DNA of 64,000 nucleotides from an uncultured virus (IMG/VR IMGVR_UViG_3300036398_005783) (IMGVR_UViG_3300036398_005783); one strand, 5' to 3'; counted from the first letter of the stretch, positions 6,118 to 30,609 are shown. Numbers and translations: made by a program. The notes: generated by a model not told the origin, from the sequence alone.

Positions 6118-6249
6118 CTATTCAGATGTGAATTTTTCACACACGATTTCAAACTCTATTGTATAAATTGAATATAAGCGATTAAATGCTGAATAGTATG
6201 CTGTTATATGTAAATAAGACTTTCGTTGATTCTGATGGATTTATGTGGC

Positions 6250-16893: not shown

Positions 16894-17030
16894 TAGTCAT
16901 GATAGGATTTGAACCTATATGGTGATTGAGAACTGACTTACTCTGCTATTATTCTGAACTTTGGGTTCAAGGAGTTACACCTTTCAGCAAAATCACCGCA
17001 GCTGCGTCTAACCATTTCCGCCACATGACT
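16894..17030 (-). ncRNA. tRNA-like element 1 (137 nt, no anticodon arm)
   Basis: AGTCATG/CATGACT-A acceptor, D arm GGCGGAAATGGTTAGACGC, T arm ATAGG-TTCAAAT-CCTAT; long insert closed by GGTGATT/AATCACC. Confidence 0.75.
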
Positions 17031-17821: not shown

Positions 17822-17844
17822 AACTCTTCTTTATTATTAATTTG

Positions 17845-17956
17845 TAGTCAGGACAGGACTCGAACCTGCATTTGTGGAACACCATTTCCAACGTCTGAAT
17901 CGAACAGAACCAATCAACCCTCCACGGGCAGCGTCTACCAATTCCGCCACCTGACT
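17845..17956 (-). ncRNA. tRNA-like element 2 (112 nt)
   Basis: AGTCAGG/CCTGACT-ACA, D arm GGCGGAATTGGTAGACGC, T arm GCAGG-TTCGAGT-CCTGT; three-hairpin insert. Confidence 0.78.
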
Positions 17957-17994
17957 ATATTGTATTTGCGAAGTTTTATATCGTGTATATGGGA

Positions 17995-18475
17995 GTTATA
18001 AACAATTTATTAAAAAACCACATCTTCTGTAAAAATTAAACAACCAAAATCATCAATAACTTCATAAGGAAATACCGATTTCAAGATTGTATCAAAAACT
18101 ATGTAATCTTTACCGATTGATAAATCATGTTTTATACTATTTTCAACATTTGGATGAGATTTGTATTCATTTAACTTACATGTTTTTTTATAGAAAGAAA
18201 TCTTTTCACCACTTTCAAATGATAAATGAAACCCCTCAATGTCACCTAACTTATTCAAATCTTCTGAAATTATAGGAATGATTATGAAGTTATTATACCC
18301 ATTATTTTTTAGTATTTCTTTGATATTACTACCATTGAATTTACAACTTGAAATAAGTCTTTTAATTTTTTCCATATTTTAATAAACAGTTTATAACAAG
18401 GTATATGTGAAATACCTTATAAAGTTTCTACTAATTTTTAAGTTCTGTTGTAAGGTACTTCACATATACCCAACC
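17995..18475 (+). mobile_element. integron-like gene cassette (antisense ORF 18010-18375)
   Basis: Begins GTTATAAAC (17995); complementary GTTTATAAC at 18389-18397, then an attC-like hairpin. Confidence 0.65.
18010..18375 (-). CDS. hypothetical cassette protein
   Basis: ORF fills the cassette. Confidence 0.7.
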   Translation of the reverse strand: MEKIKRLISSCKFNGSNIKEILKNNGYNNFIIIPIISEDLNKLGDIEGFHLSFESGEKISFYKKTCKLNEYKSHPNVENSIKHDLSIGKDYIVFDTILKSVFPYEVIDDFGCLIFTEDVVF

Positions 18476-18485
18476 GTTATGTGCC
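18391..18485 (+). repeat. attC-like site
   Basis: TAAC-AA-GGTATATGTGAAATACCTTA ... TAAGGTACTTCACATATACC-CAACC-GTTA; very similar copy at 28154-28243. Confidence 0.75.
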
Positions 18486-18493
18486 ATTAAAGA

Positions 18494-18607
18494 CTACCTA
18501 TAATTCCAACCAACGGCTACACCACATAAAAAGACCCATAACCAAGCTAAGTTCCATTGCCAGTCTTTGTATTTAAACTCTCCGTGTTTTGTTTTAATTG
18601 TTACCAT
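18494..18607 (-). CDS. 37-aa hydrophobic cassette peptide
   Basis: MVTIKTKHGEFKYKDWQWNLAWLWVFLCGVAVGWNYR; lies between GTTATGTGCC (18476) and GGCACATAAC (18623). Confidence 0.5.
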   Translation of the reverse strand: MVTIKTKHGEFKYKDWQWNLAWLWVFLCGVAVGWNYR

Positions 18608-18625
18608 TTTGATAAGATTAACGGC

Positions 18626-18721
18626 ACATAACAAGGGCTTTGCGTAATAGCCATATCAAGTGTCGTGGTTAATTTTAAGTTTATACTAAGGGCTACTACG
18701 CAAAGCCCTGAACCGTTATGC
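18626..18721 (+). repeat. attC-like site
   Basis: ACATAAC-A-AGGGCTTTGCGTAATAGCC ... GGCTACTACGCAAAGCCCT-GAACC-GTTATG. Confidence 0.78.
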
Positions 18722-18904
18722 GCCATTTTGGGAAAACCACTCTTGAAACAACTTTTCCAGTTCTTCACAGTCATATACAGTCTCATCGCTTTCTCCCATA
18801 GTTACTGTCCAATTTTCACTTGAATGCCTTGTGTATCTGTTTAGTTCGCTTTCATCTGTTTCAACATAAAAAACGATTGACCTTGTTGCATTTGTAATTT
18901 TCAT
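18716..18904 (-). CDS. hypothetical protein
   Basis: Start MKITNATRS chosen because the longer start overlaps tRNA-like element 3; stop codon is the TTA of the attC core. Confidence 0.65.
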   Translation of the reverse strand: MKITNATRSIVFYVETDESELNRYTRHSSENWTVTMGESDETVYDCEELEKLFQEWFSQNGA

Positions 18905-18926
18905 AAGTTTCTCTTGTTGTTGTTTG

Positions 18927-19004
18927 TAGTCAGGGCAGGACTCGAACCTGATAAGCAACCGTTTTAATGGACTTGGAACCTTTCCTCATTACGCCCACCT
19001 GACT
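18927..19004 (-). ncRNA. tRNA-like element 3 (78 nt, divergent D arm)
   Basis: AGTCAGG/CCTGACT-ACA, T arm CAGG-TTCGAGT-CCTG; no canonical anticodon stem-loop. Confidence 0.6.
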
Positions 19005-19016
19005 GTTCTCTTTGCC

Positions 19017-19265
19017 TTATTTAAGAGTTTCGCATATAGGCTCGCATCGCACTAATTCGCTCTCCTTTGGGAGCTCTTCAGGAGCGTATTTCTCGCCAAC
19101 ACCAATCGGGTCTTTGGTGTATGCTACAAGTTCTGCCATCGCTTTTTCAATGCTCTCAAAGGCAAATGATTTGCATCCCACCCTGACAAGGCATCCTCGG
19201 TCAAAGAATGTGATTTCAAGATTCCAGCGCTTTAGTTCATTGATTTGTTCTCTTGTGTGTGTCAT
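19017..19265 (-). CDS. hypothetical protein flanked by tRNA-like elements 3 and 4
   Basis: ORF. Confidence 0.7.
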   Translation of the reverse strand: MTHTREQINELKRWNLEITFFDRGCLVRVGCKSFAFESIEKAMAELVAYTKDPIGVGEKYAPEELPKESELVRCEPICETLK

Positions 19266-19302
19266 TTTTTTTTGGGTTTAGTTAATGATTTTTAATTGTT
19301 TG

Positions 19303-19473
19303 TAGTCAGGGCAGGACTCGAACCTGCATGCCATCTGTGGCTTTCTCTTCCATTTACGTTTGCAACCGTACCACAAGCGTTTTGCCACTCCTGTATAATG
19401 TCCGCTAACGTCTATCATACAATATTAACCTTGCGAGTTAATGTGTGCGTCTAACCAATTCCGCCACCTGACT
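19303..19473 (-). ncRNA. tRNA-like element 4 (171 nt, multi-hairpin insert)
   Basis: AGTCAGG/CCTGACT-ACA, D arm GGCGGAATTGGTTAGACGC, T arm GCAGG-TTCGAGT-CCTGC; own TATCTTTG promoter about 50 nt upstream. Confidence 0.78.
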
Positions 19474-19557
19474 TCCAAGCATTTTTTATCTATGAAGTGG
19501 TTCGCTTTCCACTTATTATCTTTTGCAAAGATACTTATATTATTCTGATTTTCCAAA

Positions 19558-19815
19558 TTAATTATTTTTAGTATTAACAATCCATTCTATAATCGGATTA
19601 AAACTTTGAGCATTCCAATAGTTTCCATTAAAATCAAAATATTCTTTAGTGGGATTGTAGGTGTATCTGAAGTGAACTTCTCCATCAGTTCTATTATGTC
19701 TTTCAAGTTTTTGAACAGAGAAATCCATTTGCATCAGTTCATTATTAAATCCATCATAATCAAACCAACCGTGACTATTAGAAAACTCATTTAATAAATC
19801 CCCTTTGTTATCCAT
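19558..19815 (-). CDS. hypothetical protein
   Basis: ORF with TAAGGA RBS; degraded copy of its 3' end at about 30325-30400. Confidence 0.7.
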   Translation of the reverse strand: MDNKGDLLNEFSNSHGWFDYDGFNNELMQMDFSVQKLERHNRTDGEVHFRYTYNPTKEYFDFNGNYWNAQSFNPIIEWIVNTKNN

Positions 19816-19841
19816 AGAATCGTTTCCTTAATATATTTGAA

Positions 19842-20108
19842 TTACATATCAGAAACATCATTATCGTCTATCTTATGGAAATGGTCTATATTAAAACAAT
19901 CTATACAAGCATTGTAACCTTCCACATATCCTTTCTTGAATTCATCTTCTTTGCATACTTCATATCCTCTCTTATATGCCGATTTGTATTCAACATCCTT
20001 AACTGCTTTATATCCTTGGTCATGTGCAATACCAATCATTTTTGAAACATGGTCGGTGTGATAGTATAACTCACCATCTATGGTTATTGCTCGTTTTGGT
20101 TTGTCCAT
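19842..20108 (-). CDS. GYxxG-repeat protein
   Basis: C-terminus near-identical to that of 23000-23845. Confidence 0.7.
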   Translation of the reverse strand: MDKPKRAITIDGELYYHTDHVSKMIGIAHDQGYKAVKDVEYKSAYKRGYEVCKEDEFKKGYVEGYNACIDCFNIDHFHKIDDNDVSDM

Positions 20109-20172
20109 ATTAAATTATTCCTCTTATTTCTATTGGGTCTGTCCAGATAACCTTATCAGGATCTACCGATGG

Positions 20173-20898
20173 TTATTCAACGCCGTCTGTGTCTCTACCG
20201 TATTTTAAGATGCGTTCTGCTACTTCTCTACAATCCTTATATCCAGAAACATATCCCGTAATATACCTTGATCCAAATATAGTTTCGTTCCAAGTTTTTG
20301 AACCCATGTCTTTGGTTGATGGCACAGCAAAATGTTCTACCATTTTTCTCAGTTTTACTTCTCTACAATCATCGTAACCTTCTTTATATCCCTTATGGAA
20401 TGCTTCTTCTATATGAGCAAGGTATTCACCTGGTATTTCTTTATTACTGATACCGTCATCTTTACATTCTTTACAGTAATCATCGTAATCATGGTCATAA
20501 TCAACAGTACTCTGATTGGGATATTCGGGAACGGGCACAGCAATGTAGGGTGAACAGTTTTTCTTACCTGCTTCATATCCTATGCGATACCATTGCTCTT
20601 GTGTACGGACAATGTCACTATCAGTATAACCGTTAGCAACGCCTTCAACTTGGGCTAACTTATATCCTTCAGATTCACCTTCTTTATATCCTTTCATATA
20701 TTCATTACTATTTTGGGCATCAGGTCGTGTCAATCCACTATTAGCCATTGATTTACCATCATCAACACCCATTTCATACCAAGCATTGTGTACCTTTGCC
20801 ATTTTTAATGATGAATAGTATGTAACTCCATTTACTTCAACCATCAGAGGTAAATCTTCTTTTGATATACCCCATTGATTAAATTTCCAATCTTTCAT
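20173..20898 (-). CDS. GYxxG-repeat protein
   Basis: Repeated GYKEG/GYDD; N-terminus similar to 23000-23845. Confidence 0.75.
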   Translation of the reverse strand: MKDWKFNQWGISKEDLPLMVEVNGVTYYSSLKMAKVHNAWYEMGVDDGKSMANSGLTRPDAQNSNEYMKGYKEGESEGYKLAQVEGVANGYTDSDIVRTQEQWYRIGYEAGKKNCSPYIAVPVPEYPNQSTVDYDHDYDDYCKECKDDGISNKEIPGEYLAHIEEAFHKGYKEGYDDCREVKLRKMVEHFAVPSTKDMGSKTWNETIFGSRYITGYVSGYKDCREVAERILKYGRDTDGVE

Positions 20899-20915
20899 AG
20901 TATTTGTTCCTTATC

Positions 20916-21125
20916 TTAAAAGTTTCTTAAATGTTCATTAATGCCGTGTAGTCTTTCTTTTATATAATCTACCGATTCTTTTACGCAAATGGCATCATTA
21001 CCGATATTAAGTTTGGTTAAATCGCCATAGTCAATGGCGTTAATAGTTTGCATATAGTCAATCTTAGCTATATTAATCGATATTTTATTTTCATCCATAT
21101 CGGTTAGATCAATAAAGAATATCAT
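20916..21125 (-). CDS. hypothetical protein (FlbD-like small beta protein)
   Basis: FIDLT...ISIN...I...TKL.IG...VKESVDYI pattern. Confidence 0.5.
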   Translation of the reverse strand: MIFFIDLTDMDENKISINIAKIDYMQTINAIDYGDLTKLNIGNDAICVKESVDYIKERLHGINEHLRNF

Positions 21126-21255
21126 TTTTGGTTATTCCTTATAATTAGAATTTGTTGCATCTTGTTTTCTATAAATGTCAAAAAGTGTCTTCATAATATA
21201 GCATAATTTCTACTTATGTTTAGTAGAAAATAATCTTTTTCAGCACCTAATACTT

Positions 21256-21543
21256 TTAATCTACTACTTCATAAGTAGTTTCAAATATATCAGGTTTGCA
21301 AGGATAATACTCTCCTTGAACACCTTTGATAATCCAATCACCAATTGATGCAATATGTTCGCCTTCTAATGTTTTTATGATTAAGCCACCATTGACTTTA
21401 TTCCAGTCAATATAAAAATTGACTCCTGTGGCTTGAATATACTCTTCATCTTCTCCACCTAAAAAATTGAACATTTCTCTGTGGTTATCTCCAGTCCATT
21501 GCACGGCTTCAATCTCTATTGGTTTTTTTCTGAATTTTGGCAT
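21256..21543 (-). CDS. PGDYG-like phage protein
   Basis: KFRKKPIEIEAVQW...TLEG...GDWIIKGVQGEYYPCKPDIF..TY. Confidence 0.8.
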   Translation of the reverse strand: MPKFRKKPIEIEAVQWTGDNHREMFNFLGGEDEEYIQATGVNFYIDWNKVNGGLIIKTLEGEHIASIGDWIIKGVQGEYYPCKPDIFETTYEVVD

Positions 21544-21582
21544 AGTTTTATTTGGTTAGTTAATTAATTACATAAAATAAAA

Positions 21583-21879
21583 TTAATCCTTTATCTCTTC
21601 CTCAAATACATCTCGTTCTTCTTTAGTATCAAAATATCTCAATACAACTCCTTCTGCTTTACAAATAGCCTCGAAATCGCATATATAACTTGCATCCATC
21701 TCGTCTAAAAGCATTGATCCGTTTTGATAAATGCTATCACAAACTTTACAAGTGCAGGATGTTTTATTTCTCCACACTATTTTACCTATGCGATCATAAA
21801 ACCACTTCTCTCTTTCTGTTATTTCTCTTTTCGTCATTGTATTTCTAAATAGGTAGACAATTGGCTTCAACTTTTTCAT
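21583..21879 (-). CDS. hypothetical protein (start uncertain)
   Basis: ORF with CxCxxC. Confidence 0.6.
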   Translation of the reverse strand: MKKLKPIVYLFRNTMTKREITEREKWFYDRIGKIVWRNKTSCTCKVCDSIYQNGSMLLDEMDASYICDFEAICKAEGVVLRYFDTKEERDVFEEEIKD

Positions 21880-22372
21880 AAGCTATTACATATCCGCCGC
21901 TTCTTTTTTCATCTTTATGGATTAAGTAACAAGCTCTATGTTCTGAAAAGCCAGTGACATAAACAATGTCGCCTTTCTTTTCTTTAGGATTCAAGGGTAT
22001 TTCTATAATTAGTTTCTGTCCTTTTTGAAATTTAGGCTGAGGATTATGTGCAGAAACCCATGTTTCAATAGTTTTTTCTAAAATACGATATTTCTTAAAA
22101 TCAAAATCATCTAAAAACTGAATGAAAGAAGTATCAATATCATAAATGGCTTTGCTTCCAAATCCTTCTAAATATTTAGCAATTTCATATCCGTTATCGT
22201 GAGGAGATATTTTTGAAACATCATGGATAACATCTTCTAAATCACTATCACTCCATCCGTTTTTAATAATTTCTTCAGCAATAGATTTGTAAAATTCCTG
22301 CTTTTGTTTTTCAGTAATTTTTGTCGGCCTAACTTTTGTAAAGGTTTCCGCATCTGAAAATAATTTTTCCAT
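21845..22372 (-). CDS. hypothetical protein
   Basis: 175-aa ORF. Confidence 0.75.
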   Translation of the reverse strand: MEKLFSDAETFTKVRPTKITEKQKQEFYKSIAEEIIKNGWSDSDLEDVIHDVSKISPHDNGYEIAKYLEGFGSKAIYDIDTSFIQFLDDFDFKKYRILEKTIETWVSAHNPQPKFQKGQKLIIEIPLNPKEKKGDIVYVTGFSEHRACYLIHKDEKRSGGYVIAYEKVEANCLPI

Positions 22373-22384
22373 TTTTATATTCGT

Positions 22385-22822
22385 TTAATTATTAATAATG
22401 TTCTTTTTATCAATACTAACCGTAATATATGTTGGGATATATTCAAGAGTAATATCTTCCAACTTGATTTTAGAAACATCTTCGATAGAGTTATTTTTAG
22501 CAATTTCAATAAACTTATTCATAATGTCCAAGTCTGTATCACCATCGTTTATTTCAACAACTGCTCGAAAATCATTATAGCCAACTAATGCACTCATAAC
22601 TAAACAATCTTCTGAAAGTGTTTTTAATATAGAAATAACCTCAACCCATTGATTGCTATCTATATTCATCGATTCGTCAGTTTGACCAATATCAGCAAAG
22701 TTCTTGCATAATTCCGCTAAACCAATAGCTCCCATTATATTTGCTTTCTTTGATAATAACCCATTATATGGGTGATGGTCTGATGATTTTATCATCAACT
22801 CTACTATTTCATTCGTTTCCAT
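22385..22822 (-). CDS. hypothetical protein
   Basis: ORF downstream of tRNA-like element 5. Confidence 0.7.
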   Translation of the reverse strand: METNEIVELMIKSSDHHPYNGLLSKKANIMGAIGLAELCKNFADIGQTDESMNIDSNQWVEVISILKTLSEDCLVMSALVGYNDFRAVVEINDGDTDLDIMNKFIEIAKNNSIEDVSKIKLEDITLEYIPTYITVSIDKKNIINN

Positions 22823-22857
22823 AACTTGTAATCCTATGGGTATATTAATTTAAAGTG

Positions 22858-22937
22858 TAGTCAGGAACATGATTTGAACCTGTATCTCTTGTGAGCATAT
22901 TTATGGAGGCGTATGTTACCATTATCACCACCTGACT
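22858..22937 (-). ncRNA. tRNA-like element 5 (80 nt, degenerate)
   Basis: AGTCAGG/CCTGACT-ACA, D-like GTGATAATGGTAACAT, T loop GGTTCAAATC; TATATTTG promoter element just upstream. Confidence 0.55.
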
Positions 22938-22999
22938 TTTCTTTGTTAATTGCAAATATACATTAGTTTTGTATTAAATCATAGCATTATTTATTATTA

Positions 23000-23845
23000 T
23001 TACATATCAGAAACATCATTATCATCTATTTTATGCTCATAATCTATATTAAAACAATCTATACAAGCATTGTAACCTTCAACATATCCTCTCTTAAATT
23101 CTTCGTCTTTGCATACTTCATATCCTCGTTTGAATGCTTCTTCAAGTGGTTTTTTTCTGCTTATCGGTTTAACTATTTCAGCAACCATTCTATCCATACC
23201 TTGTTTATATCCTCTGAAGAATGCCTCGCAAAGTTCGTTTTTATCTTCTTTCAATTTCTCTTTCGATTCTACTACAACATCTGAATTATCGGTGGAATCT
23301 TTAGAATTGCTTAATTTACCATCAGCAAAACCTTCCTTATATCCTTCATCATTTCCTTCTACCTTACCATTAGCAAAACCTTGTTCATACCATTCTTTTT
23401 TCAGTTCATACAATTCTTCATCATCATAATAATGGTCATTTGGTTGAGGTTCTTTCTTAGCGGCTTTCCATCCAATATCATGACCTTCTGAAAAACCTCT
23501 TCCGTAACCTTTTCCAAAACCATCGCATTCGCCTTGTTTATATCCTTCATCATAACCTTTCTTCTTACCAGCAAAATATCCATCTTGGTATGCGGTATAT
23601 CCATCACCATATTTCAGGGCATCATTGATGATACTTTCATATCTATCAGGTGATGATGGTTCTGAAATTACTTCATTTCTGCATAGTTCCAATCCTACTT
23701 TGGATAATTCCATATTTATTTTGGATAGGTTTTGTGATGAATCAAATAGTTTTGATGAGAAATATTCTATACCATTTATCGTAATTGATAATGGTAACTC
23801 TTCATTTGATTTTGAGTTGAAATCTAATGTCATTGTATTTTCCAT
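23000..23845 (-). CDS. GYxxG-repeat protein
   Basis: Long GYxxG arrays. Confidence 0.78.
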   Translation of the reverse strand: MENTMTLDFNSKSNEELPLSITINGIEYFSSKLFDSSQNLSKINMELSKVGLELCRNEVISEPSSPDRYESIINDALKYGDGYTAYQDGYFAGKKKGYDEGYKQGECDGFGKGYGRGFSEGHDIGWKAAKKEPQPNDHYYDDEELYELKKEWYEQGFANGKVEGNDEGYKEGFADGKLSNSKDSTDNSDVVVESKEKLKEDKNELCEAFFRGYKQGMDRMVAEIVKPISRKKPLEEAFKRGYEVCKDEEFKRGYVEGYNACIDCFNIDYEHKIDDNDVSDM

Positions 23846-23880
23846 GTTTGTAAGATTTAATAGTGAATATAGAGATAATA

Positions 23881-24192
23881 TTACGATTCAAATTTCAATT
23901 TAAGTTTTTCATATTTCTTTCGTTCTCTTTCTTCTTTTTTCTGAATAGCCAATAATTTCTTTTGTTCATCAGCTATTCTCTCATTGTATTCATCATCATT
24001 TTCTAATCTCATTCCCATAACAATAAGTTCAGCAAATTCATTATAATATTCCATTTCAAGATGGAGGTTTGTCCAACCTTCTCGCTCTAACTTATCTTTT
24101 TGTTCTAAAAGAATTTGAGCCGCTTTTTCAAAAGAAGTCAGAAACATATCTGTATTAATGTTTACTTGACTTAAAACTCGCTTTCTTTCCAT
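23881..24192 (-). CDS. hypothetical protein
   Basis: ORF preceded by the half-site leader repeat. Confidence 0.7.
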   Translation of the reverse strand: MERKRVLSQVNINTDMFLTSFEKAAQILLEQKDKLEREGWTNLHLEMEYYNEFAELIVMGMRLENDDEYNERIADEQKKLLAIQKKEERERKKYEKLKLKFES

Positions 24193-24201
24193 AACTAAAT
24201 T

Positions 24202-24270
24202 CCATCGGTAACTAAAATAATAATTGTAATTGTGTATTGACGAAGGTTTATATCGTGTATCAGAGAGTTA
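24202..24270 (+). repeat. about 68-bp half-site/leader repeat ending in G-TTA
   Basis: CCATCGGTAACTAAAATAA...GTATTGACGAAG(G/T)TTTATATCGTGTAT-N5-AGTTA; copies at about 27499, 28541 and 29051; partial copies at 17958, 27256 and 29520. Confidence 0.85.
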
Positions 24271-24279
24271 GTGGCAATT

Positions 24280-24564
24280 TTACTCACCACTCCGAAAGAC
24301 ATCAGCGTTGAAATATTTAGCCAAGTTTTCAACCTCTTGCTTAAATTCTTCTTCATCACGCATTGTCTTGCATAATAACATCTCTATCACTCCATCAACT
24401 TTTCTGCTCAAACAATAAGCAAGAGCATCTTTGTCGTATGTATCAACGCCCATTGCATAATACGGTTGTTTAATGGTAGCTTTCTCCAACAATGATTTGT
24501 CGAAGAAAAAACTGCCACTAACATCGGTTTGGCAAGATTGGGGCTTTTGTGGTAAATTGTTCAT
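24280..24564 (-). CDS. hypothetical cassette protein
   Basis: ATG lies in the attC loop; first about 18 aa encoded by the attC arm. Confidence 0.7.
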   Translation of the reverse strand: MNNLPQKPQSCQTDVSGSFFFDKSLLEKATIKQPYYAMGVDTYDKDALAYCLSRKVDGVIEMLLCKTMRDEEEFKQEVENLAKYFNADVFRSGE

Positions 24565-24654
24565 TTGTATTTCTATTTAAAATTTGTACTAAAATTGAGC
24601 GATTGTACTTCTAAGTCCCCAACCTCGCCAAGCCGAGAACCGTTAGCACCAATA

Positions 24655-24897
24655 CTAAGAAAGGTACTCCGCTTCAATATACTTTATCATATCAGGCTGG
24701 CATTTGTCCGTATCAGGCAAGCCATTTACAGCAAATCTATGTCTGTATCTCAACCCCCTAATAGTGTGATAGCTTTCAAACAGTTCACCATCTTCAATCC
24801 AAAAATGGCTATGCCTTCTATCTCGTGAAAGAAGTACTGGTGCTAACACATTATTTGCGTCAGTGGGGTTTTCGTTTTTCAAATTATCTTTCTGCAT
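24655..24897 (-). CDS. hypothetical cassette protein
   Basis: ATG lies in the attC loop. Confidence 0.65.
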   Translation of the reverse strand: MQKDNLKNENPTDANNVLAPVLLSRDRRHSHFWIEDGELFESYHTIRGLRYRHRFAVNGLPDTDKCQPDMIKYIEAEYLS

Positions 24898-24968
24898 ATT
24901 ATTAAAGTTTTGTTTTTAAAATGAAGTTCAGTGGCTTAAATCCCCACCGAACGCAAATAATCGGCACG

Positions 24969-25682
24969 TTACCCGCAATTTTGGGGCGACACGTTCCAAA
25001 TCAAATTTTGTTCTTCGACATTTATACAGAACTGCCCAGTTGGAAAATCTGAACGAACATATTTTGCCAAAAAATCAACTTTTCCTTTTCGCTCAACACG
25101 ATAAACAATTCCTTCGGGGTTTTCTTCGCTCTCAAAGCCTTTTGTTTTCAAATTTAAAATTGGCAATAGTTCATTTACTGTTATTGGTTCGCCTTCACTC
25201 AGTAATCTTGGCATAGTTAAGCCGTATTTGCCTGTAATTTGTCGCAAATCAGTTTGTAATAGTCTTTCATTTTTCTGTGTAAAATAATCGAAAAATAAAA
25301 TAGGGTCGCTTTCAATTTTGTATTTAAGTCCATGAGCTTGTAAAAGCCATTCGCCTGTTATCCTTTCTCCTTCGCCAAGCATTTCAGCAAATAGTTTTTC
25401 ATTACTGTAAACACAATCACTAAAATAGTGGTGTTGTTTATATTGGCTTGTTTTTGCTTCATAACCCGAACGAGTTAAAGCAAATATTTTACCATTCATT
25501 TTACCTATGCCAATATTTGAACCATCGTATTTTTCATACGCAAATATGGTATCGTGTTTATCTCGTTTTTTCTCGGTCAATATTCGCTCCATGCCTTTTT
25601 CAACATAGTAATCGCCTTCACCTAATTTAGAGTTTGAAAGGTGTGGAATTGAACCGTAATTTTTTCTTTCTGTTGGTTTCAT
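24969..25682 (-). CDS. RNA ligase family (Rnl2-like) nucleotidyltransferase
   Basis: Motif I EKYDGSN, ITGEW, FFD, EGIVYR, LAKYV. Confidence 0.8.
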   Translation of the reverse strand: MKPTERKNYGSIPHLSNSKLGEGDYYVEKGMERILTEKKRDKHDTIFAYEKYDGSNIGIGKMNGKIFALTRSGYEAKTSQYKQHHYFSDCVYSNEKLFAEMLGEGERITGEWLLQAHGLKYKIESDPILFFDYFTQKNERLLQTDLRQITGKYGLTMPRLLSEGEPITVNELLPILNLKTKGFESEENPEGIVYRVERKGKVDFLAKYVRSDFPTGQFCINVEEQNLIWNVSPQNCG

Positions 25683-25802
25683 ATTTCAAATTTAATGATT
25701 AAAAAAAACTGCGGGTAACACGGGTTTGGCAAAATGGCTTTCCGACACACAAGCCAACGCACAAAAGCCACTTCGCCAATCCCGATACCGTTATAACCAA
25801 TG

Positions 25803-26060
25803 CTACCAAAGCATCGCATATTCATAACCGAAATTAGTTACACCATCAGTTATGATATATTTCCAATCTACCTCCATCCCTTCTAATTTGTCAGGAGTTG
25901 TATTGAATTTCGCTAACAAAAGCGAAACGGCTAATTGCTCATTTTTATCTTCCAGCTCATAAATTGGCAATCCTGATGAACCAGCACTAATAACAAACCA
26001 CTTACCATTAACTTTGCTAAGTTTGCCTTTCTTTGTTTCTGTTGTAATCTTTGGCATCAT
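25803..26060 (-). CDS. hypothetical protein
   Basis: ORF ending next to the core GTTATAACC. Confidence 0.6.
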   Translation of the reverse strand: MMPKITTETKKGKLSKVNGKWFVISAGSSGLPIYELEDKNEQLAVSLLLAKFNTTPDKLEGMEVDWKYIITDGVTNFGYEYAMLW

Positions 26061-26200
26061 AGTAATTCACCATAAAATTCTTTCATCAACCACTCCACCG
26101 CTGTTTGCTTACTCATGGTCGCCTCCATGAAGTTGGTTTTCTACATATCCAAAAAACAAAAGCTATCACAAATAATGTGAAAAAACATTTTACAATTGTT

Positions 26201-26482
26201 TCAATCATGGTCGCCTCCGTAGGTTGCTTGGTAATATACTTTGCATTCTGGTGTATTATATGGCTGTAAGAAATAAAGCTTACTAAAATTTTCACCTTCA
26301 TTGAAGGCATCCTCAATTTGCTTCTTTTCCATACGGAGCGCACTCTTTACTAACCATCTCAAACGGTTTACTTCAATCATATGGTAACGCTCAATAAATT
26401 CAGTGCCTCTATACAAATCATTCGTTTTACTGATTTCGTTGATATTGTATATCAACCACTCTACCGCCGTTTGCTTACTCAT
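26201..26482 (-). CDS. MSKQTAVEWL...YGGDH family protein
   Basis: Family motif. Confidence 0.75.
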   Translation of the reverse strand: MSKQTAVEWLIYNINEISKTNDLYRGTEFIERYHMIEVNRLRWLVKSALRMEKKQIEDAFNEGENFSKLYFLQPYNTPECKVYYQATYGGDHD

Positions 26483-26681
26483 CTATATACTCCTGATACG
26501 GGTCTCTTAAATTGCGAATCTTCACTTGTTCGCGTTCATGTATTGTCATTTTGGCTATGCTGTACATTTCTTTCTCAAAGCGATCATAAGCCCACTCTCT
26601 GACATCCTCTTCGGATAGCGAGTAGTCAAGGAGCACATCGTCTTCGTCAAATGCGCCCCAGACTTCGAAGGTGTTACTCAT
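26475..26681 (-). CDS. hypothetical acidic protein
   Basis: MSNTFEVWG start after GGAG; overlaps its neighbours. Confidence 0.65.
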   Translation of the reverse strand: MSNTFEVWGAFDEDDVLLDYSLSEEDVREWAYDRFEKEMYSIAKMTIHEREQVKIRNLRDPYQEYIDE

Positions 26682-26962
26682 AACATACTCCAAATACAAT
26701 AAAAACACCATACCCAAAAAGCAACGATTACAAAACCCAATAAGATAATTATATGCCATGATGCAATTTTGTAAAGCCAGTATTCTAATGTTGCGTTATC
26801 AGAAGCTTCAATGCCAAGTGCTTTCCAATAGGTTTCGTTAATTTGCTCTTTCTCAATTTGCTTAGCTTGGTGAATAAGTCCGTCCCATTTTGCATGCTCT
26901 TCGTAATTCCAATGGCTTGCAAAACACTTCTCCAACCACTCTACTGCGGTTTGCTTACTCAT
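26678..26962 (-). CDS. MSKQTAVEWL family protein with C-terminal hydrophobic segment
   Basis: First about 40 aa near-identical to 27053-27247; GGAGG RBS. Confidence 0.7.
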   Translation of the reverse strand: MSKQTAVEWLEKCFASHWNYEEHAKWDGLIHQAKQIEKEQINETYWKALGIEASDNATLEYWLYKIASWHIIILLGFVIVAFWVWCFYCIWSML

Positions 26963-27052
26963 GGTTGCCTCCATAAAAAATAAAATGCTCCAGTTATACA
27001 TATAACGAAAATACTAATCAATACAATGTCTACGATATTAAATACAGGTCGC

Positions 27053-27247
27053 TTACTCATGGTCGCCTCCGTAGGTTTTTGGTGGTATTGGTAAATGATG
27101 AGAGCCTGCAATATATGCCTTTGTAGTCTGCTCTTTTTCCATTTGCTTTGCTTGTTGGATTAGTCCATCCCATTTTGCATGCTCTTCGTAATTCCAATGG
27201 CTTGCAAAACACTTCTCTAACCACTCTACTGCGGTTTGCTTACTCAT
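27053..27247 (-). CDS. MSKQTAVEWL...YGGDHE family protein
   Basis: Family motif. Confidence 0.75.
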   Translation of the reverse strand: MSKQTAVEWLEKCFASHWNYEEHAKWDGLIQQAKQMEKEQTTKAYIAGSHHLPIPPKTYGGDHE

Positions 27248-27278
27248 AACTGAATCCTAACGGTAACTAAAATAATGC

Positions 27279-27491
27279 TTACATTACATACCAATTAAAT
27301 ACTATATTAACCATCAATGAAATCAATAACAATATGTTTCCCAATATGGCTTCACTCTTATAGATATAGTATGCTCCTGCAATGAGACATACCAAACCTG
27401 TAATAACATTCCACCCACTTGTTGCAGGCACAATATAGAATACGGTCAATGTTGCTATGGCCAATCCATAACCAATGAGTTTGTGTTTCAT
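27279..27491 (-). CDS. small membrane protein
   Basis: Three hydrophobic segments. Confidence 0.7.
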   Translation of the reverse strand: MKHKLIGYGLAIATLTVFYIVPATSGWNVITGLVCLIAGAYYIYKSEAILGNILLLISLMVNIVFNWYVM

Positions 27492-27598
27492 AAGGATTCC
27501 ATCGGTAACTAAAATAAAAATACTGTAATTTTGTATTGACGAAGTTTTATATCGTGTATAAGTGAGTTAGTTTCAATATCAAAAATTTTATGAGTTTA

Positions 27599-27808
27599 TT
27601 ATTTTACTTCACGTTTCTTAACAATGAAATGAAGACCACACCAACCACTTTTTCTCTCATCTTCTGTTGTCTGTTCCTTCCATAATTTATCAGCCTCTTT
27701 ATCTGCCATATCTTTATCAAAAAATAATAATCCTGTTGAATACTCTACATTAGGTGATTCAACTAAACCGAATCCCACTACTTTTACTATTTCAAATATA
27801 TTTTTCAT
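27599..27808 (-). CDS. hypothetical cassette protein
   Basis: Between core GTTAG (27566) and the attC-like site at 27841. Confidence 0.65.
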   Translation of the reverse strand: MKNIFEIVKVVGFGLVESPNVEYSTGLLFFDKDMADKEADKLWKEQTTEDERKSGWCGLHFIVKKREVK

Positions 27809-27840
27809 ATTTATATTTTTTTAATTAACTAAAAACCTAC

Positions 27841-27894
27841 ACATAACAAATGATAAACAACATTAAAACGATTGTTTATCATTGGACGTTATAA
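27841..27894 (+). repeat. short attC-like site
   Basis: ACATAAC-A-AATGATAAACAA ... TTGTTTATCATT-GGAC-GTTATAA. Confidence 0.7.
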
Positions 27895-27908
27895 ACAATA
27901 AAAAATTA

Positions 27909-28139
27909 TTATTGTTCTTTATCTACAATAAACCAATTTCCGTTAAAAATATTGAGTTCTCCAATAGCATTTTTTTGATTAATTATTTCATACCAGTTTG
28001 TTGGTAGGTTATCTATGATTTCAATCTCAAACTCAATATTTTCTTTATTGAGCATTAGTACTTTGTAGTTACCAAAATCGTAATTATACAATAGTGTTCC
28101 AATCTCCAATTGGTTTATTGTTTCTAATTTCTGCTTCAT
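27909..28139 (-). CDS. hypothetical cassette protein
   Basis: Bounded by GTTATAAACA (27888) and TGTTTATAAC (28151). Confidence 0.65.
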   Translation of the reverse strand: MKQKLETINQLEIGTLLYNYDFGNYKVLMLNKENIEFEIEIIDNLPTNWYEIINQKNAIGELNIFNGNWFIVDKEQ

Positions 28140-28244
28140 AATTTTTTACATGTTTATAACAAGGTATATGTGAAATACCTTATAAAGTTATACTAATAAT
28201 TTAAGTTTTGTGGTGAGGTACTTCACAAATAAACGAGTTGTGTG

Positions 28245-28472
28245 TCATTTTAGACGAGCATGCCATTTCAATCTATCATCACTACCAATTTCAACCAATT
28301 CAAATTTAACCGTTCTGTTTTCTAAGATAGCCCAAGGATGAAAATTAAAACTCAAAAGGTCTATTGGTAATTCACCATTTCTATTACCAATTAAATTTGA
28401 ATTATCACATTTTACAACCCAATATGGTGTTGTGTTGAAATTGGTTGATTGAATTAAATTTCCTGTTTCCAT
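28245..28472 (-). CDS. hypothetical cassette protein
   Basis: Bounded by GTTGTGTGT (28237) and ATACATAAC (28491), an imperfect match. Confidence 0.65.
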   Translation of the reverse strand: METGNLIQSTNFNTTPYWVVKCDNSNLIGNRNGELPIDLLSFNFHPWAILENRTVKFELVEIGSDDRLKWHARLK

Positions 28473-28618
28473 ATTTTATTTAATTTACATATACATAACA
28501 ACAAATATAAGGAATTATTCGCTAAGATCAAAGCACTTTTCCATCGGTAACTAAAATAAAAATTGTAATTGTGTATTGACGAAGGTTTATATCGTGTATA
28601 AGTGAGTTATATGAAATG

Positions 28619-29041
28619 TTAATTTTTAGAGTGCCAGTCCGACTTTGAAACCCAACACACTTCTGTATTCATCATCAACCAACCTCTTGATATTTTACCA
28701 TTTTCATCAAATCTACTCTTTATTTTACAAATTAGATATGAAGAATCTGTAACCCACCCTATCCAAGCTTCATCATAACCTTCAAGTTTAACCTCGTCAC
28801 CTTTTTTAAGTTCTGTACCATTGTGGTATTGGTCGAAACATACACCACCTTCATCTTGTGATGCCATCCCACCTTTCCAATACTCAAACAAGAGTTCTTC
28901 TTCCATTTCCTTTGCTTGTTGAAATATACCCTTTGAATTAAATAGTGTACTTTTACTTTCTATATCTTCAATCAGTTTGTAATAATATAGTGAATTTGAT
29001 ATTTGTCCAAATAACCAATCCACTGCGGTTTGCTTACGCAT
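28619..29041 (-). CDS. MRKQTAVDWL family fusion protein
   Basis: Family N-terminus with an unrelated C-terminus. Confidence 0.7.
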   Translation of the reverse strand: MRKQTAVDWLFGQISNSLYYYKLIEDIESKSTLFNSKGIFQQAKEMEEELLFEYWKGGMASQDEGGVCFDQYHNGTELKKGDEVKLEGYDEAWIGWVTDSSYLICKIKSRFDENGKISRGWLMMNTEVCWVSKSDWHSKN

Positions 29042-29163
29042 AACAAAACTCCAACGGTAACTAAAATAAAAATTGTAATTGTGTATTGACGAAATTTTAT
29101 ATCGTGTATATGGGAGTTAGGTTCAATTAAACAAAATTTATGAGTTAATCAAAAAACCATATA

Positions 29164-29421
29164 TCAGTTAATGCCCCTACAATAATCATAACCAATGTTG
29201 TCTAACTCAACTTTATACAGTGTTCTATCATTGAAGTTTTCTTTTGAAAAACCTTTTATCACATCATTATTTTTGTGTGAAATTGTTTCAATGTCATCTA
29301 TATTGTTTTTGATGTCATTTAGTGTTTTCCCCAACCTACTCCAGTAAATTTGTTTATACAAAAATATACCAGTCCATTGTAGGTTTTTCAAAATAAAATC
29401 TGTTAATTTAGTTCGTTTCAT
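29164..29421 (-). CDS. hypothetical protein
   Basis: ORF with TAAGGA RBS. Confidence 0.65.
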   Translation of the reverse strand: MKRTKLTDFILKNLQWTGIFLYKQIYWSRLGKTLNDIKNNIDDIETISHKNNDVIKGFSKENFNDRTLYKVELDNIGYDYCRGIN

Positions 29422-29551
29422 TTGTTTAATTCCTTAATAGTAGAGAAATGATATTTATTGGTATCTGGTTCTAAACCAGTATTTCTGTGTTTAAAATAAA
29501 ATTTATTCATAACAAAACTCCAACGGTACATAAAACAAATTCACTATGTAA

Positions 29552-29836
29552 TCAATACTCACAAAACCATTCAGTTACGACAAATGATAAGTTTAAGGCT
29601 TCACCTTTTTCATTAGATTCATATTCAACATAAAAACCACCAGTTCCAACGGTTGTTTTTTCCATAATTGCTTCTTTAAGAAGTTTTCTTACAGTATGTT
29701 TCATTTGTTGAATAGATGGAACTCCATTATCTCTCCATTCCAAATTCAAGTGTGTCATAACATCATGGACTTTATCGAAATCAAACCAGTCCATAATTTC
29801 ATCTATCGCTTCTTGTTGCTTTTCTGTTATACTCAT
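29552..29836 (-). CDS. hypothetical phage protein
   Basis: IMDWFDFDKVH.VM..L..W...VP...TGGF pattern. Confidence 0.7.
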   Translation of the reverse strand: MSITEKQQEAIDEIMDWFDFDKVHDVMTHLNLEWRDNGVPSIQQMKHTVRKLLKEAIMEKTTVGTGGFYVEYESNEKGEALNLSFVVTEWFCEY

Positions 29837-29837
29837 A

Positions 29838-30029
29838 TTATTTACCCACTATTCCAAATTTAGAAAGGATATATTGTAGTTTAGATAGTCCAGTCAATAA
29901 GTCTTCTTGTTTGGGAATTTCTTTATCCCACATATTAACACCTTCAACTATTACTGACTCAGCATCAGCACAATCAAAACAAACACCAACTCTCAATTCT
30001 TTTTCTCGGTTACAACATTTGCATTTCAT
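29838..30029 (-). CDS. small Zn-finger-like protein
   Basis: CxCC...CFDC; AAGGAG RBS. Confidence 0.65.
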   Translation of the reverse strand: MKCKCCNREKELRVGVCFDCADAESVIVEGVNMWDKEIPKQEDLLTGLSKLQYILSKFGIVGK

Positions 30030-30116
30030 AGTTTAACTCCTTTGTTTCATATAATTATATCCAATTATGACTTTTGAATAAATAACTACAATTAGTTTTT
30101 AAAGATAATATATCTG

Positions 30117-30232
30117 TAGTCAGGAACAGGATTTGAACCTGTATTTGTGGAACACCACTTCCAATGTCCGAGTCGAACGGAACCAATCACCCACACTAGT
30201 GGGTAGCGTCTAACCAATTCCGCCACCTGACT
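30117..30232 (-). ncRNA. tRNA-like element 6 (116 nt)
   Basis: Same scaffold; insert homologous to element 2 with a compensatory pair change; upstream flank homologous to element 4. Confidence 0.78.
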
Positions 30233-30609
30233 TCCAAGCATTTTTTATCTATGTAGTGGTTCGCTTTCCACTTATTATCTATTGTAAATATACTTATACT
30301 ATTTTGATTTTCCAAACTAATTTTTTTAGTATTAACAATCCATTCTATAATGGGATTGAAACTTTTAGCGTTTCAATAATTTCCATTAAAATCAAATCAA
30401 CATACACATAAGTGAACTATCAATTTGCTAAACAAAAATAGGATTTTTTAGTTTTGAAAAGAGTGCAAATACTTAATAAATATACTATTTAGTTCTATTC
30501 AAATATACAATAATATTTTATATTATCAAAAATTATTTTATTACGAGTTTCAAATTTCAGTATTTGTAAAACGATATATAACTAAAATGTAATTAATGGA
30601 AAGAATCTA

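What the first reader, a model, noticed from the sequence alone, without database searches (positions are those of the whole stretch)
17845..30232. Elements 2 and 6 share an insert with a second T-loop hairpin and a compensatory base-pair change
Seen: the insert of element 2 has TCTG-TTCGATT-CAGA where element 6 has TCCG-TTCGACT-CGGA, a T-A to C-G covariation around a TTCGA T-loop. Both keep TGGAA-RTGGTG-TTCCA. The first hairpin differs in sequence (GCCC-GTGGA-GGGT versus ACCCAC-TAGT-GTGGGT) but still pairs. Element 3 also has an internal GGTTCCAAGTCC T-arm-like tract. Element 6 has the insert of element 2 but the upstream flank and promoter region of element 4 (19474-19638 similar to 30233-30397). 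Inference: RNA structure in the insert is under selection, and inserts are exchanged by recombination in the constant scaffold. Paired T-loops are known tRNA-elbow-binding modules in T-box leaders and RNase P.
Basis: partly seen in the sequence, partly recalled or inferred. Interest (0 to 1): 0.75.

Follow-up and report, generated by a model that had tools for sequence, protein, structure and literature searches.

The report
Anticodon-less leucine-tRNA-shaped phage RNAs
Elements 2 and 6 are two copies of a phage gene for a small RNA that keeps the body of a leucine tRNA but carries a conserved three-hairpin module instead of an anticodon, one member of a very large, little-described family whose job is unknown.

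Summary
On the minus strand, E2 (17956-17846) and E6 (30232-30118) share a constant tRNA-Leu-type acceptor stem, D arm and T arm. Between these lie three hairpins. The second is a perfect T-arm copy (G-C closing pair, UUCGAYU loop). Across 18 distinct homologs the hairpins stay paired: 98% of cells pair, 8 pairs change on both sides, and 0 of 500 shuffles do as well. Hairpin 2 shows U-A (13), C-G (4) and the U-G intermediate (1). The window holds six such elements. The same chassis with hundreds of different inserts occurs in more than 127 viral contigs, but only in 11 MAG contigs among 185,579 reference genomes. Elements sit in or near phage tRNA clusters and carry the same leader and trailer signature as the phages' true tRNA genes. 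Flanks, chassis halves and inserts assort independently, so recombination is supported. E2 and E6 have no anticodon loop and are not intron-bearing tRNAs. The closest known relatives are phage T5 RNA1 and RNA2, annotated as tRNA-like stable RNAs of unknown function. My best reading is a non-decoding RNA processed like a tRNA that displays a structured payload.

The parts
17846..17956 (-). Element 2 (E2), 111 nt. From the 5' end: acceptor 5' strand 17956-17950; D arm 17949-17931; hairpin 1 17929-17917; linker TGATTGGT 17916-17909; T-arm-like hairpin 2 17908-17894; hairpin 3 17890-17875; junction CAAAT 17874-17870; T arm 17869-17853; acceptor 3' strand 17852-17846. The trailer ACAA follows at 17845-17842.
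   Evidence: Sequence. Structure counted. An identical copy lies in metagenome locus L167.
30118..30232 (-). Element 6 (E6), 115 nt, with the same architecture. Hairpin 1 30204-30189; linker 30188-30182; hairpin 2 30181-30167; hairpin 3 30163-30148; T arm 30142-30126; one extra T at 30125 between the T stem and the acceptor strand; acceptor 3' strand 30124-30118.
   Evidence: The Rfam tRNA model scores 21.8 bits (cut-off 29) and places hairpin 1 at the anticodon arm and hairpins 2 and 3 in the variable region. Identical copies lie in L193 and L208.
19304..19473 (-). Element 4 (E4): the same chassis with a different 119-nt insert.
   Evidence: Its homolog in L005 keeps the fold, with 3 pairs changed on both sides. 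A 161-nt contig from an RNA library matches 19339-19499 exactly.
19474..19638 (-). Upstream flank of E4. It comprises the 3' end of ORF 19558-19815 and a TATCTTTG promoter-like box at 19533-19526. This flank is duplicated upstream of E6.
30233..30397 (-). Upstream flank of E6, 91.5% identical to E4's flank. The box reads TATATTTA here, so the final G is lost.
16895..17030 (-). Element 1 (E1): chassis with a compensated acceptor stem (AGTCATG/CATGACT) and an 85-nt insert. L097 carries the same insert class.
18928..19004 (-). Element 3 (E3): a divergent member with a remodelled D region and the GGTTCCAAGTCC tract at 18980-18969. A second element in L050 carries the same class.
22859..22937 (-). 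Element 5 (E5): a short, partly degenerate member. Its 3' half (TTCAAAT loop plus an extra T before CCTGACT) matches that of E6.

Best explanation
E2 and E6 are paralogous genes for a non-decoding small RNA built on the body of a bacterial-type leucine (class II) tRNA.

Shown:
- The acceptor stem, D arm with G18G19, T arm, U48 and A73 are kept.
- The anticodon arm is reduced to a capped stub: 4 bp with a 5-nt loop in E2, and 6 bp with a 4-nt loop in E6.
- The variable region is expanded into two conserved hairpins. One is an exact T-arm copy. The other has an invariant GGUG in its loop.
- The helices covary.
- The elements belong to a phage-only family with hundreds of different inserts on one chassis.
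- They carry the same 5' leader and 3' trailer signature as the phages' true tRNA genes, and they often sit inside tRNA clusters.

Inferred:
- They are transcribed with their neighbours, or from their own promoter as for E4.
- The host tRNA machinery cuts them out: RNase P at the 5' end, then 3' trimming and CCA completion.
- They fold into an L shape and accumulate as stable RNAs.
- The chassis gives stability and recognition, possibly including charging by LeuRS. Every E. coli leucine identity element is retained, and only the parts LeuRS does not need are replaced.
- The insert is the working payload. For this class I think the T-arm copy docks onto the GG loop of hairpin 3 (or onto the GAUUGG linker) to form a second elbow-like knob that binds an unknown partner.
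- The constant chassis halves also act as homology for swapping flanks and payloads between copies and between phages.
For: Structure. 18 distinct class members give 98.0% of 504 cells paired, 8 of 28 pairs changed on both sides, and 0/500 shuffles as high on all five measures. Slid controls pair at 28-45%. Hairpin 2 reads U-A 13, C-G 4, U-G 1. Hairpin 1 reads C-G 10, U-A 7, U-G 1 at one pair. Hairpin 3 reads A-U 17, G-C 1. The GGTG of loop 3 and TCCACAAAT are invariant although no search pattern fixed them.

Family.
- Of 165 unique elements collected, 151 have T before the T stem and 140 have discriminator A.
- A reference-genome scan found only 11 loci, all in MAG contigs.

tRNA-like handling.
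- In the elements, -1 is T in 127/163. In the same loci, it is T in 16/29 usable canonical tRNA calls.
- In the elements, +74 is C in 149/165, +75 is A or T in 142/165, and +76 is A in 118/165.
- In the 29 canonical tRNAs the matching counts are C 26/29, A or T 25/29, and A 21/29.
- 49 of 138 element loci have an ARAGORN tRNA call within about 400 nt.
- In L331 an element starts 1 nt after tRNA-Met and is followed by tRNA-Arg.

Expression hint. An RNA-library contig matches E4 plus 26 nt upstream exactly. Another contig, at depth 13.5, carries a different family member. The tool warns that DNA can be present in such a library.

Leucine identity. According to passages of PMC9976931, E. coli LeuRS needs A73, A15-U48, G18G19, A20a and the D/T-loop contacts. 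Variants lacking the anticodon arm and variable arm are still charged.

Precedent. The T5 record AY543070 annotates RNA1, RNA2 and RNA3 as tRNA-like stable RNAs of unknown function inside its tRNA cluster. RNA1 has the Leu-type D arm. RNA2 has the T arm GCAGGTTCGAATCCTGT and an internal CTCG-TTCGATT-CGAG hairpin.
Against: - Nothing here shows processing, accumulation, CCA addition or charging of E2 or E6. The RNA evidence is two contigs from one library.
- Minimum-free-energy folding of E2 alone is not better than shuffles (z = -0.89). It prefers an alternative helix between the D region and the linker. That helix is 93% pair-compatible, though it has no covariation.
- E6, L187 and E5 carry an extra nucleotide between the T stem and the acceptor strand. 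No true tRNA has this, and it could impair recognition.
- A73, G18G19 and U48 are common tRNA features, so their retention is weak evidence for leucylation specifically.
- The strong sequence identity of the chassis is partly forced by my exact-match search. It could also reflect gene conversion rather than function.
- The docking of hairpin 2 onto hairpin 3 cannot be tested by covariation, because both loops are invariant.
Confidence: 0.6

Rival explanations
1. Cis-acting 'punctuation' elements. The tRNA-shaped fold serves only as an RNase P/RNase Z cutting signal that separates and stabilises neighbouring mRNAs, like the t-elements of plant mitochondria. The excised RNA itself has no job.
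For: In the window E4, E3, E2 and E1 alternate with single same-strand ORFs. In 90 of 165 elements an ORF of 40 or more codons starts within 200 nt downstream, at a median of 25.5 nt. The elements share the processing signature of tRNA genes. Plant t-elements are a known precedent (PMC1920247; I saw only the search listing and the start of the abstract).
Against: A cutting signal would not need dozens of insert classes, each kept by compensatory changes. Insert class does not track the downstream gene: E2-class inserts stand before at least four unrelated flanks. Some elements abut tRNA genes with no ORF to punctuate. In a tightly packed phage genome any intergenic element lies close to the next start codon.
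Confidence: 0.15
2. The insert's T-loop together with a second T-loop forms a tRNA-elbow-docking platform like those of T-box stem I, RNase P and the L1 stalk. The RNA would then capture or sense host tRNAs.
For: Hairpin 2 fits the T-loop consensus exactly: a G-C closing pair and UUCGAYU. Its stem covaries. T5 RNA2 also carries an internal TTCGATT hairpin, so a second T arm recurs in phage tRNA-like RNAs. An earlier scan note, e1-5406146, reports another 'double-elbow' case.
Against: Only one loop in the insert fits the T-loop consensus. Loops GURGA and RUGGUG do not start with U. The chassis T-loop should be occupied by its own D loop. The known docking motif, as I recall it, is two interdigitated T-loops in one helical domain, which is not the layout here. 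No specifier-like or antiterminator partner is present.
Confidence: 0.1
3. Decaying or intron-bearing tRNA genes. E2 and E6 would be pseudo-tRNAs, or tRNAs whose insert is spliced out to restore a decoder.
For: With introns allowed, ARAGORN calls E2 tRNA-Ser(cga) with a 20-nt intron and E1 tRNA-Tyr(gta) with a 42-nt intron. Rfam's tRNA model gives E6 21.8 bits. It scores other family members at 32-42 bits, above the 29-bit cut-off.
Against: ARAGORN's E2 model needs an anticodon stem with 2 non-pairs out of 5 and an intron at position 32/33. No 7-nt loop with U33 exists in E2 or E6. The 'intron' would cut through hairpins that covary. Identical or near-identical copies persist in several independent contigs. 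All members share one acceptor stem whatever 'anticodon' ARAGORN reads, and those loops mostly lack U33.
Confidence: 0.06
4. Mainly a DNA-level feature. The constant halves would be recombination or homing sites that shuffle gene cassettes, and any RNA is incidental.
For: Flanks, chassis halves and inserts are mosaic. HNH and GIY-YIG endonuclease genes lie in or near such clusters: window 50077-50475, an ORF in L331, and T5 hegC. Chassis words are about 30-55 times deeper than the unique flanks in a lake DNA run.
Against: Compensatory changes in the T stem, the acceptor stem (E1: AGTCATG/CATGACT) and the insert hairpins point to selection on a folded single strand. The elements are strictly co-oriented with their genes and share the tRNA leader and trailer signature.
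Confidence: 0.06

Closest known systems
Phage T5 RNA1, RNA2 and RNA3 (GenBank AY543070, 30501-30644, 32959-33083, 33877-33949; annotated 'tRNA-like stable RNA with unknown functions')
   Same: They lie inside a phage tRNA cluster, interspersed with small ORFs and an HNH endonuclease. The acceptor stem and T arm are kept, and the anticodon arm is replaced by a larger folded domain. RNA1 has the Leu-type D arm GCCGGAATTGGTAGACGG. RNA2 has the same T arm, GCAGGTTCGAATCCTGT, and an internal second T-arm hairpin CTCG-TTCGATT-CGAG.
   Different: They have different acceptor stems and different inserts. There is no alignable similarity to the E2/E6 insert beyond the T-loop hairpin. T5 has single copies, not a multi-copy set on one shared chassis. 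INPHARED holds no record covering 80% or more of E2 (0 of 131 matching records).
Bacterial class II tRNA-Leu (Rfam RF00005)
   Same: It has the 7-bp acceptor stem, a 3-bp D stem with the AAUUGGUAGA loop, the T arm, U48 and A73. The 5' 21 nt match annotated tRNA-Leu genes at 100% (rows H13-H16).
   Different: E2 and E6 have no anticodon loop. The variable region is a two-hairpin module. The score is below Rfam's cut-off or gives no hit.
Phage T4 species 1 and 2 RNAs (rnaC, rnaD) of the tRNA cluster. This is recalled, and it is also named in earlier scan notes; I did not examine it here.
   Same: They are phage-encoded stable RNAs in a tRNA cluster with tRNA-like ends and no known function.
   Different: No comparison was made here.
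tRNA-like domain of tmRNA
   Same: It keeps the upper half of a tRNA (acceptor and T arm), with the anticodon side replaced by other RNA. It is processed by RNase P and charged without an anticodon (start of the PMC3985003 abstract, listing).
   Different: ARAGORN found no tmRNA. There is no tag reading frame or pseudoknot ring. E2 and E6 have a full D stem and lack the G3-U70 pair.
Engineered 'tRNA scaffold' for expressing RNA aptamers (recalled; the general topic appears in PMC10155629, search listing only)
   Same: A payload RNA is placed where the anticodon arm was, so that tRNA processing and folding protect it.
   Different: That scaffold is man-made. Here it would be a natural, evolving library. 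Whether the payloads bind anything is unknown.
Interdigitated double T-loop elbow-docking motif of T-box stem I, RNase P and the L1 stalk (recalled; PMC4919913 seen only as a search listing)
   Same: It uses T-loop modules.
   Different: That motif has two T-loops locked into each other within one domain. The E2/E6 insert has one.

Membership tests
Canonical tRNA (RF00005) | 7-bp acceptor stem, D arm with G18G19, and a 5-bp T stem with a UUCRANY loop | tested here: met
   acceptor stem 96% paired, D stem 100%, T stem 100%, with 3 covarying pairs.
Canonical tRNA (RF00005) | 5-bp anticodon stem closing a 7-nt loop with U33 and an anticodon | tested here: not met
   E2 has 4 bp and the 5-nt loop GUGGA. 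E6 has 6 bp and the 4-nt loop UAGU.
Canonical tRNA (RF00005) | Reaches Rfam's gathering score of 29 bits | tested here: not met
   The window scan finds only the Leu and Met tRNAs at 54.4 and 56.2 kb. E6 scores 21.8 bits. E1-E4 give no tRNA hit at E up to 5.
Intron-bearing tRNA | Removing one insert restores a canonical anticodon arm | tested here: not met
   ARAGORN's intron model for E2 has 2 of 5 stem positions unpaired, places the intron at 32/33, and cuts through covarying hairpins.
Phage tRNA-like stable RNAs (T5 RNA1/RNA2 type; 'leucine-tRNA chassis' family) | tRNA acceptor and T arm (with a Leu-type D arm) plus a folded domain in place of the anticodon arm, encoded by a phage | tested here: met
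Phage tRNA-like stable RNAs (T5 RNA1/RNA2 type; 'leucine-tRNA chassis' family) | Accumulates as a discrete stable RNA in infected cells | not testable with these tools
   The only data are assembled contigs from one RNA library, covering E4 and another family member. They give no information on ends or abundance.
Double T-loop elbow-docking module (T-box stem I, RNase P, L1 stalk) | Two T-loop pentads in one domain | tested here: not met
   Only hairpin 2 fits UUCRA with a G-C closing pair. The other insert loops are GURGA and RUGGUG. The consensus used is recalled.
Double T-loop elbow-docking module (T-box stem I, RNase P, L1 stalk) | Binds the elbow of a tRNA | not testable with these tools
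   This needs a binding assay or a structure.
tmRNA | tRNA-like domain plus a tag reading frame, detectable by ARAGORN | tested here: not met
   ARAGORN reports no tmRNA in the window.
YrlA / Y RNA (RF02553) | Match to the Rfam model; RNA termini on the Ro-binding stem rather than the acceptor stem | tested here: not met
   No YrlA hit in the window. One weak sub-threshold hit (26 bits against a 69-bit cut-off) appears in L013.

The most novel reading that the evidence does not exclude
Large aquatic phages run a natural 'tRNA scaffold' platform. One leucine-tRNA chassis is matured, and perhaps leucylated, by host enzymes, and it displays hundreds of interchangeable structured payloads that recombination shuffles between phages. 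The E2/E6 payload would build a second tRNA elbow. The RNA would then act as a two-elbow decoy or adaptor for factors that read tRNA elbows or acceptor ends. Candidates are RNase P, ribosomal sites, and tRNA-sensing or tRNA-cutting host defences.
Probability: 0.15. Interest if true: 0.85.

Novelty: new variant of a known kind. Interest (0 to 1): 0.62.

Why it matters
Phage tRNA-like stable RNAs have been annotated since the T4 and T5 era without a function. This window shows that they are not oddities. One leucine-tRNA chassis carries many conserved, covarying payloads, is very abundant in lake metagenomes, and is shuffled modularly. If the RNAs are processed and charged like tRNAs but cannot decode, they represent an unexplored way for phages to interact with host tRNA biology, translation or defence. 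They would also be a ready-made natural library of stable RNA folds. On the practical side, several members are called as ordinary tRNAs (Ile, Gln, Val, Lys, Glu, Tyr, Ser) by ARAGORN or pass Rfam's tRNA cut-off, so counts of phage tRNAs and suppressor tRNAs can be inflated.

Tried and rejected
- Rfam at gathering score over the whole window found only two true tRNAs. At E up to 5 there was nothing meaningful over E1-E4.
- ARAGORN intron models are unconvincing.
- An alternative helix between the D region and the linker, predicted by energy folding, has 0 pairs changed on both sides and cannot be told from shuffles. It is not supported and not excluded.
- Antisense pairing of the six inserts to same-strand transcripts of the window gave longest matches of 10-11 nt. 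In 45 to 199 of 200 shuffles the match was at least as long (after a time-out).
- The viral scan with GGTGTTCCACAAAT returned 120 loci, and only 1 was a true member.
- Of the 64 metagenome hits, 14 were true members and 50 were chance matches.
- INPHARED phage searches: the 4-kb region gave no match. E2 gave only partial hits to tRNA-Leu and tRNA-Thr arms.
- No whole genome is held for the window.
- Notes by place and by sequence in this scan returned nothing.
- Pfam on ORFs around element clusters in two jumbo phages showed no recurrent partner protein.
- In the window I saw no aaRS or CCA-adding enzyme among the 81 ORFs scanned.
- RNA run X20 gave no cover of the ORFs flanking E1-E4.
- Literature: six full-text searches found no paper describing this family. 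PMC subscription journals and the older T5 literature are largely outside the library.

Full report
**What is at the coordinates.** The window is AT-rich (31% GC) and phage-like. It encodes many DNA methyltransferases, at least a dozen ankyrin-repeat proteins, an ArdA-like protein, YopX, an RNA ligase and SAM synthetase. No host genome is held for it. The flagged strings all read on the minus strand.

E2 (17956-17846) and E6 (30232-30118) begin with AGTCAGG-TG-GCGGAATTGGT(T)AGACGC. They end with a T arm (RCAGG-TTCRARU-CCTGT), then CCTGACT, then ACAA or ACAG. That is the acceptor stem, D arm and T arm of a bacterial class II leucine tRNA. The 5' 21 nt match annotated tRNA-Leu genes at 100%.

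Rfam's tRNA model aligns E6 at 21.8 bits, below the 29-bit cut-off. It puts hairpin 1 at the anticodon arm and hairpins 2 and 3 in the variable region. There is no 7-nt anticodon loop. E2 has 4 bp capped by GUGGA, and E6 has 6 bp capped by UAGU.

**Check of the observation.** Every quoted motif is present. A permissive scan for a T arm plus a complementary acceptor stem finds six such elements in the window: E1 17030-16895, E2, E3 19004-18928, E4 19473-19304, E5 22937-22859 and E6. It also finds the two true tRNAs. The chassis motifs are far beyond chance: 4 and 5 matches against 0.00 and 0.08 expected.

**Homologs and covariation.**
- A viral-contig scan that left the three variable positions of hairpin 2 free gave 7 loci with 5 distinct sequences.
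- A metagenome scan that left the whole hairpin 2 stem free gave 64 loci. Of these, 14 are true members and 50 are chance hits with no chassis.

After removing duplicates, 18 distinct sequences remained. E2 is identical to L167, and E6 is identical to L193 and L208. I counted the cloverleaf plus three hairpins on this alignment:
- 98.0% of 504 cells pair.
- 8 of 28 pairs change on both sides.
- All five measures exceed 500 of 500 shuffles.
- Sliding the partner by 1-3 columns drops pairing to 28-45%.

Hairpin 1 shows C-G 10, U-A 7, U-G 1 at one pair and C-G 16, U-A 1 at another. Hairpin 3 shows A-U 17, G-C 1. The T stem has three covarying pairs.

Five unpaired cells in hairpin 1 need explaining. 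Four come from the one-column register shift of the E6-type hairpin, which pairs perfectly in its own register. One comes from L105, which carries an extra 34-nt hairpin.

Hairpin 2 matches the T arm in detail: a G-C closing pair like G53-C61 and a UUCGAYU loop. The loop of hairpin 3 keeps GGUG in all 18 sequences, although no search pattern fixed it. The caveats on pattern-forced positions are given in the observation check.

The energy-preferred alternative helix between the D region and the GAUUGGUUC linker has no covariation.

**The family.** From all loci I extracted 165 unique elements of 68-278 nt (median 110) with extremely varied inserts. Many insert classes recur, and the E4 class also shows compensatory changes.

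In 185,579 reference genomes the 20-mer occurs in only 11 contigs. All are MAGs (three Flavobacterium, two Chitinophagia-type, others scattered), so it is not a host tRNA. Complete jumbo-phage records of 206-289 kb hold 1-5 copies, often clustered within 2-3 kb.

In a lake DNA run the chassis words are about 30-55 times deeper than this phage's unique flanks, which means many other members are present. Lake-water metagenome runs hold the stretch: 5 runs under 5 study codes, besides 14 rows that may be the source itself.

**Signs that they are handled as tRNAs.** The tallies below compare the elements with 29 usable canonical tRNA calls from the same loci. Those 29 come from 37 calls, after excluding 6 with the family acceptor stem and 2 that were unusable.

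| Position | Elements | Canonical tRNAs |
|---|---|---|
| -1 is T | 127/163 | 16/29 |
| nt before T stem (U48 position) is T | 151/165 | not counted |
| discriminator (73) is A | 140/165 | 20/29 |
| 74 is C | 149/165 | 26/29 |
| 75 is A or T | 142/165 (C in only 10) | 25/29 |
| 76 is A | 118/165 | 21/29 |

The elements therefore carry the leader and trailer signature of the phages' own tRNA genes. In addition, 49 of 138 element loci have an ARAGORN tRNA call within about 400 nt. In L331 an element begins 1 nt after tRNA-Met and is followed by tRNA-Arg.

One RNA-library run holds a 161-nt contig identical to 19339-19499 (E4 plus 26 nt upstream). It also holds a 172-nt contig at depth 13.5 with a different insert on the same chassis. 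The tool warns that such libraries can contain DNA, so this is only a hint.

**Leucine identity.** The review PMC9976931 (passages read) states the following for E. coli. A73, the A15-U48 pair, G18G19, A20a and the D/T-loop contacts define leucine identity. The anticodon and the long variable arm do not. Variants lacking both arms are still charged unless A73 or the D/T contacts are destroyed.

The chassis keeps exactly these features and replaces exactly the dispensable parts. That makes charging by LeuRS plausible, but it is not shown, and the same features are common to many tRNAs.

**Recombination.** E4 and E6 share 165 nt of upstream flank at 91.5% identity, plus the GGTTAGACGC chassis variant. 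E6's insert is of the E2 class. Its 3' half (TTCAAAT loop and an extra T before CCTGACT) matches E5. Other contigs show the same mixing:
- In L208 an E6-type element follows 235 nt of E4-like flank.
- In L187 an E6-type body, with the U-G intermediate, sits in front of E2's downstream gene (98% over 250 nt).
- In L144 an E2-class insert precedes E3's downstream flank.

**What it is not.**
- It is not a decoder, because it has no anticodon loop.
- It is not an intron-bearing tRNA. ARAGORN's model for E2 needs a poor stem and an intron at position 32/33.
- It is not a tmRNA.
- It matches no other Rfam 15 family.
- It is not antisense to this window's transcripts.
- It is not convincingly the double T-loop docking module, since the insert has only one T-loop.

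**Closest known.** Earlier notes of this scan pointed to T5, and I checked this. The T5 record AY543070 annotates RNA1, RNA2 and RNA3 as tRNA-like stable RNAs of unknown function inside its tRNA cluster. RNA1 has a Leu-type D arm. RNA2 has the same T arm and an internal CTCG-TTCGATT-CGAG hairpin at the tip of an extended anticodon-side helix. E2 and E6 are thus a new variant of an old, unexplained kind of phage RNA. Six literature searches found no description of the chassis family. The library lacks most subscription journals and older papers.

**Verdict.** The inferences of selection on structure and of recombination are supported. The elbow-binding interpretation is untested and fits the architecture poorly.

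My best reading, at about 0.6 confidence, is a non-decoding leucine-tRNA-derived small RNA. I think it is matured like a tRNA, and its remodelled anticodon and variable region is a conserved payload, perhaps a second elbow. Its molecular partner is unknown.

Noticed in passing
window 18400-18488 and 18618-18727: Two long hairpins (arms of 23 nt and 19 nt, 91-95% complementary). On the + strand each is followed by the 17-nt motif AACCGTTATGYGCCATT. The second hairpin is also preceded by the inverted motif. In a lake DNA run these bins are 7-9 times deeper than the flanks, so this is probably another repeated structured element.
   Followed up: partly
window, minus strand, e.g. 525, 1143, 2497, 3006, 3414, 4825, 5323, 5626, 5970, 7413, 10727, 11421, 19526, 54522, 62470: TATCTTTG recurs in intergenic positions. 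The general pattern TANNTTTG occurs 134 times against 103.5 +/- 8.4 expected. It resembles the Bacteroidota -7 promoter box (recalled). E4 has one 53 nt upstream of its 5' end. The homologous site at E6 has lost the final G.
   Followed up: partly
loci L004-L152 (canonical tRNAs next to elements) and all 165 elements: In these phages, tRNA genes and the tRNA-like elements both encode N73-C-(A/T)-A-A rather than CCA. C75 is avoided (2 of 29 tRNAs, 10 of 165 elements). This suggests a shared, specific 3' maturation route.
   Followed up: partly
L015, L031, L070, L074, L167, L203; L002, L019, L022, L059, L137: Short family members are called by ARAGORN as tRNA-Ile, Gln, Val, Lys, Glu, Tyr or Ser, although most of their 'anticodon loops' lack U33. 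Other members pass Rfam's tRNA cut-off at 32-42 bits. They are likely to be misannotated as tRNAs in phage genomes.
   Followed up: partly
window 1-64000: Unusual gene content for a phage. At least 14 ORFs have ankyrin repeats, including a 1343-aa protein at 32524-36555. About nine are DNA methyltransferases. There is also an ArdA-like protein (1543-2037), SAM synthetase (61193-62419), an RNA ligase (24969-25682), nucleoside deoxyribosyltransferase (50537-50998) and a tyrosinase-domain fragment (63266-63979).
   Followed up: no
L332 (T5 AY543070) 2960-3084, minus strand: T5 RNA2 folds as a cloverleaf whose anticodon-side helix is capped by a second T-arm hairpin (GCUCG-UUCGAUU-CGAGU). It has the same loop sequence as hairpin 2 of E2.
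   Followed up: partly
RNA run X20, contig laid at 17844-17956: A 172-nt contig from a freshwater RNA library carries the 3' end of one chassis element, a 9-letter spacer after the ACA trailer, and then a complete element with an 80-nt insert unlike any in the window. It looks like a tandem pair, possibly a dimeric precursor.
   Followed up: no
L331 (G004:C1:207000-213500) 1345-2016 and 5541-6473: A SegE-like GIY-YIG endonuclease ORF and a class II aaRS-like ORF lie inside a cluster of tRNAs and chassis elements in a 246-kb phage.
   Followed up: no
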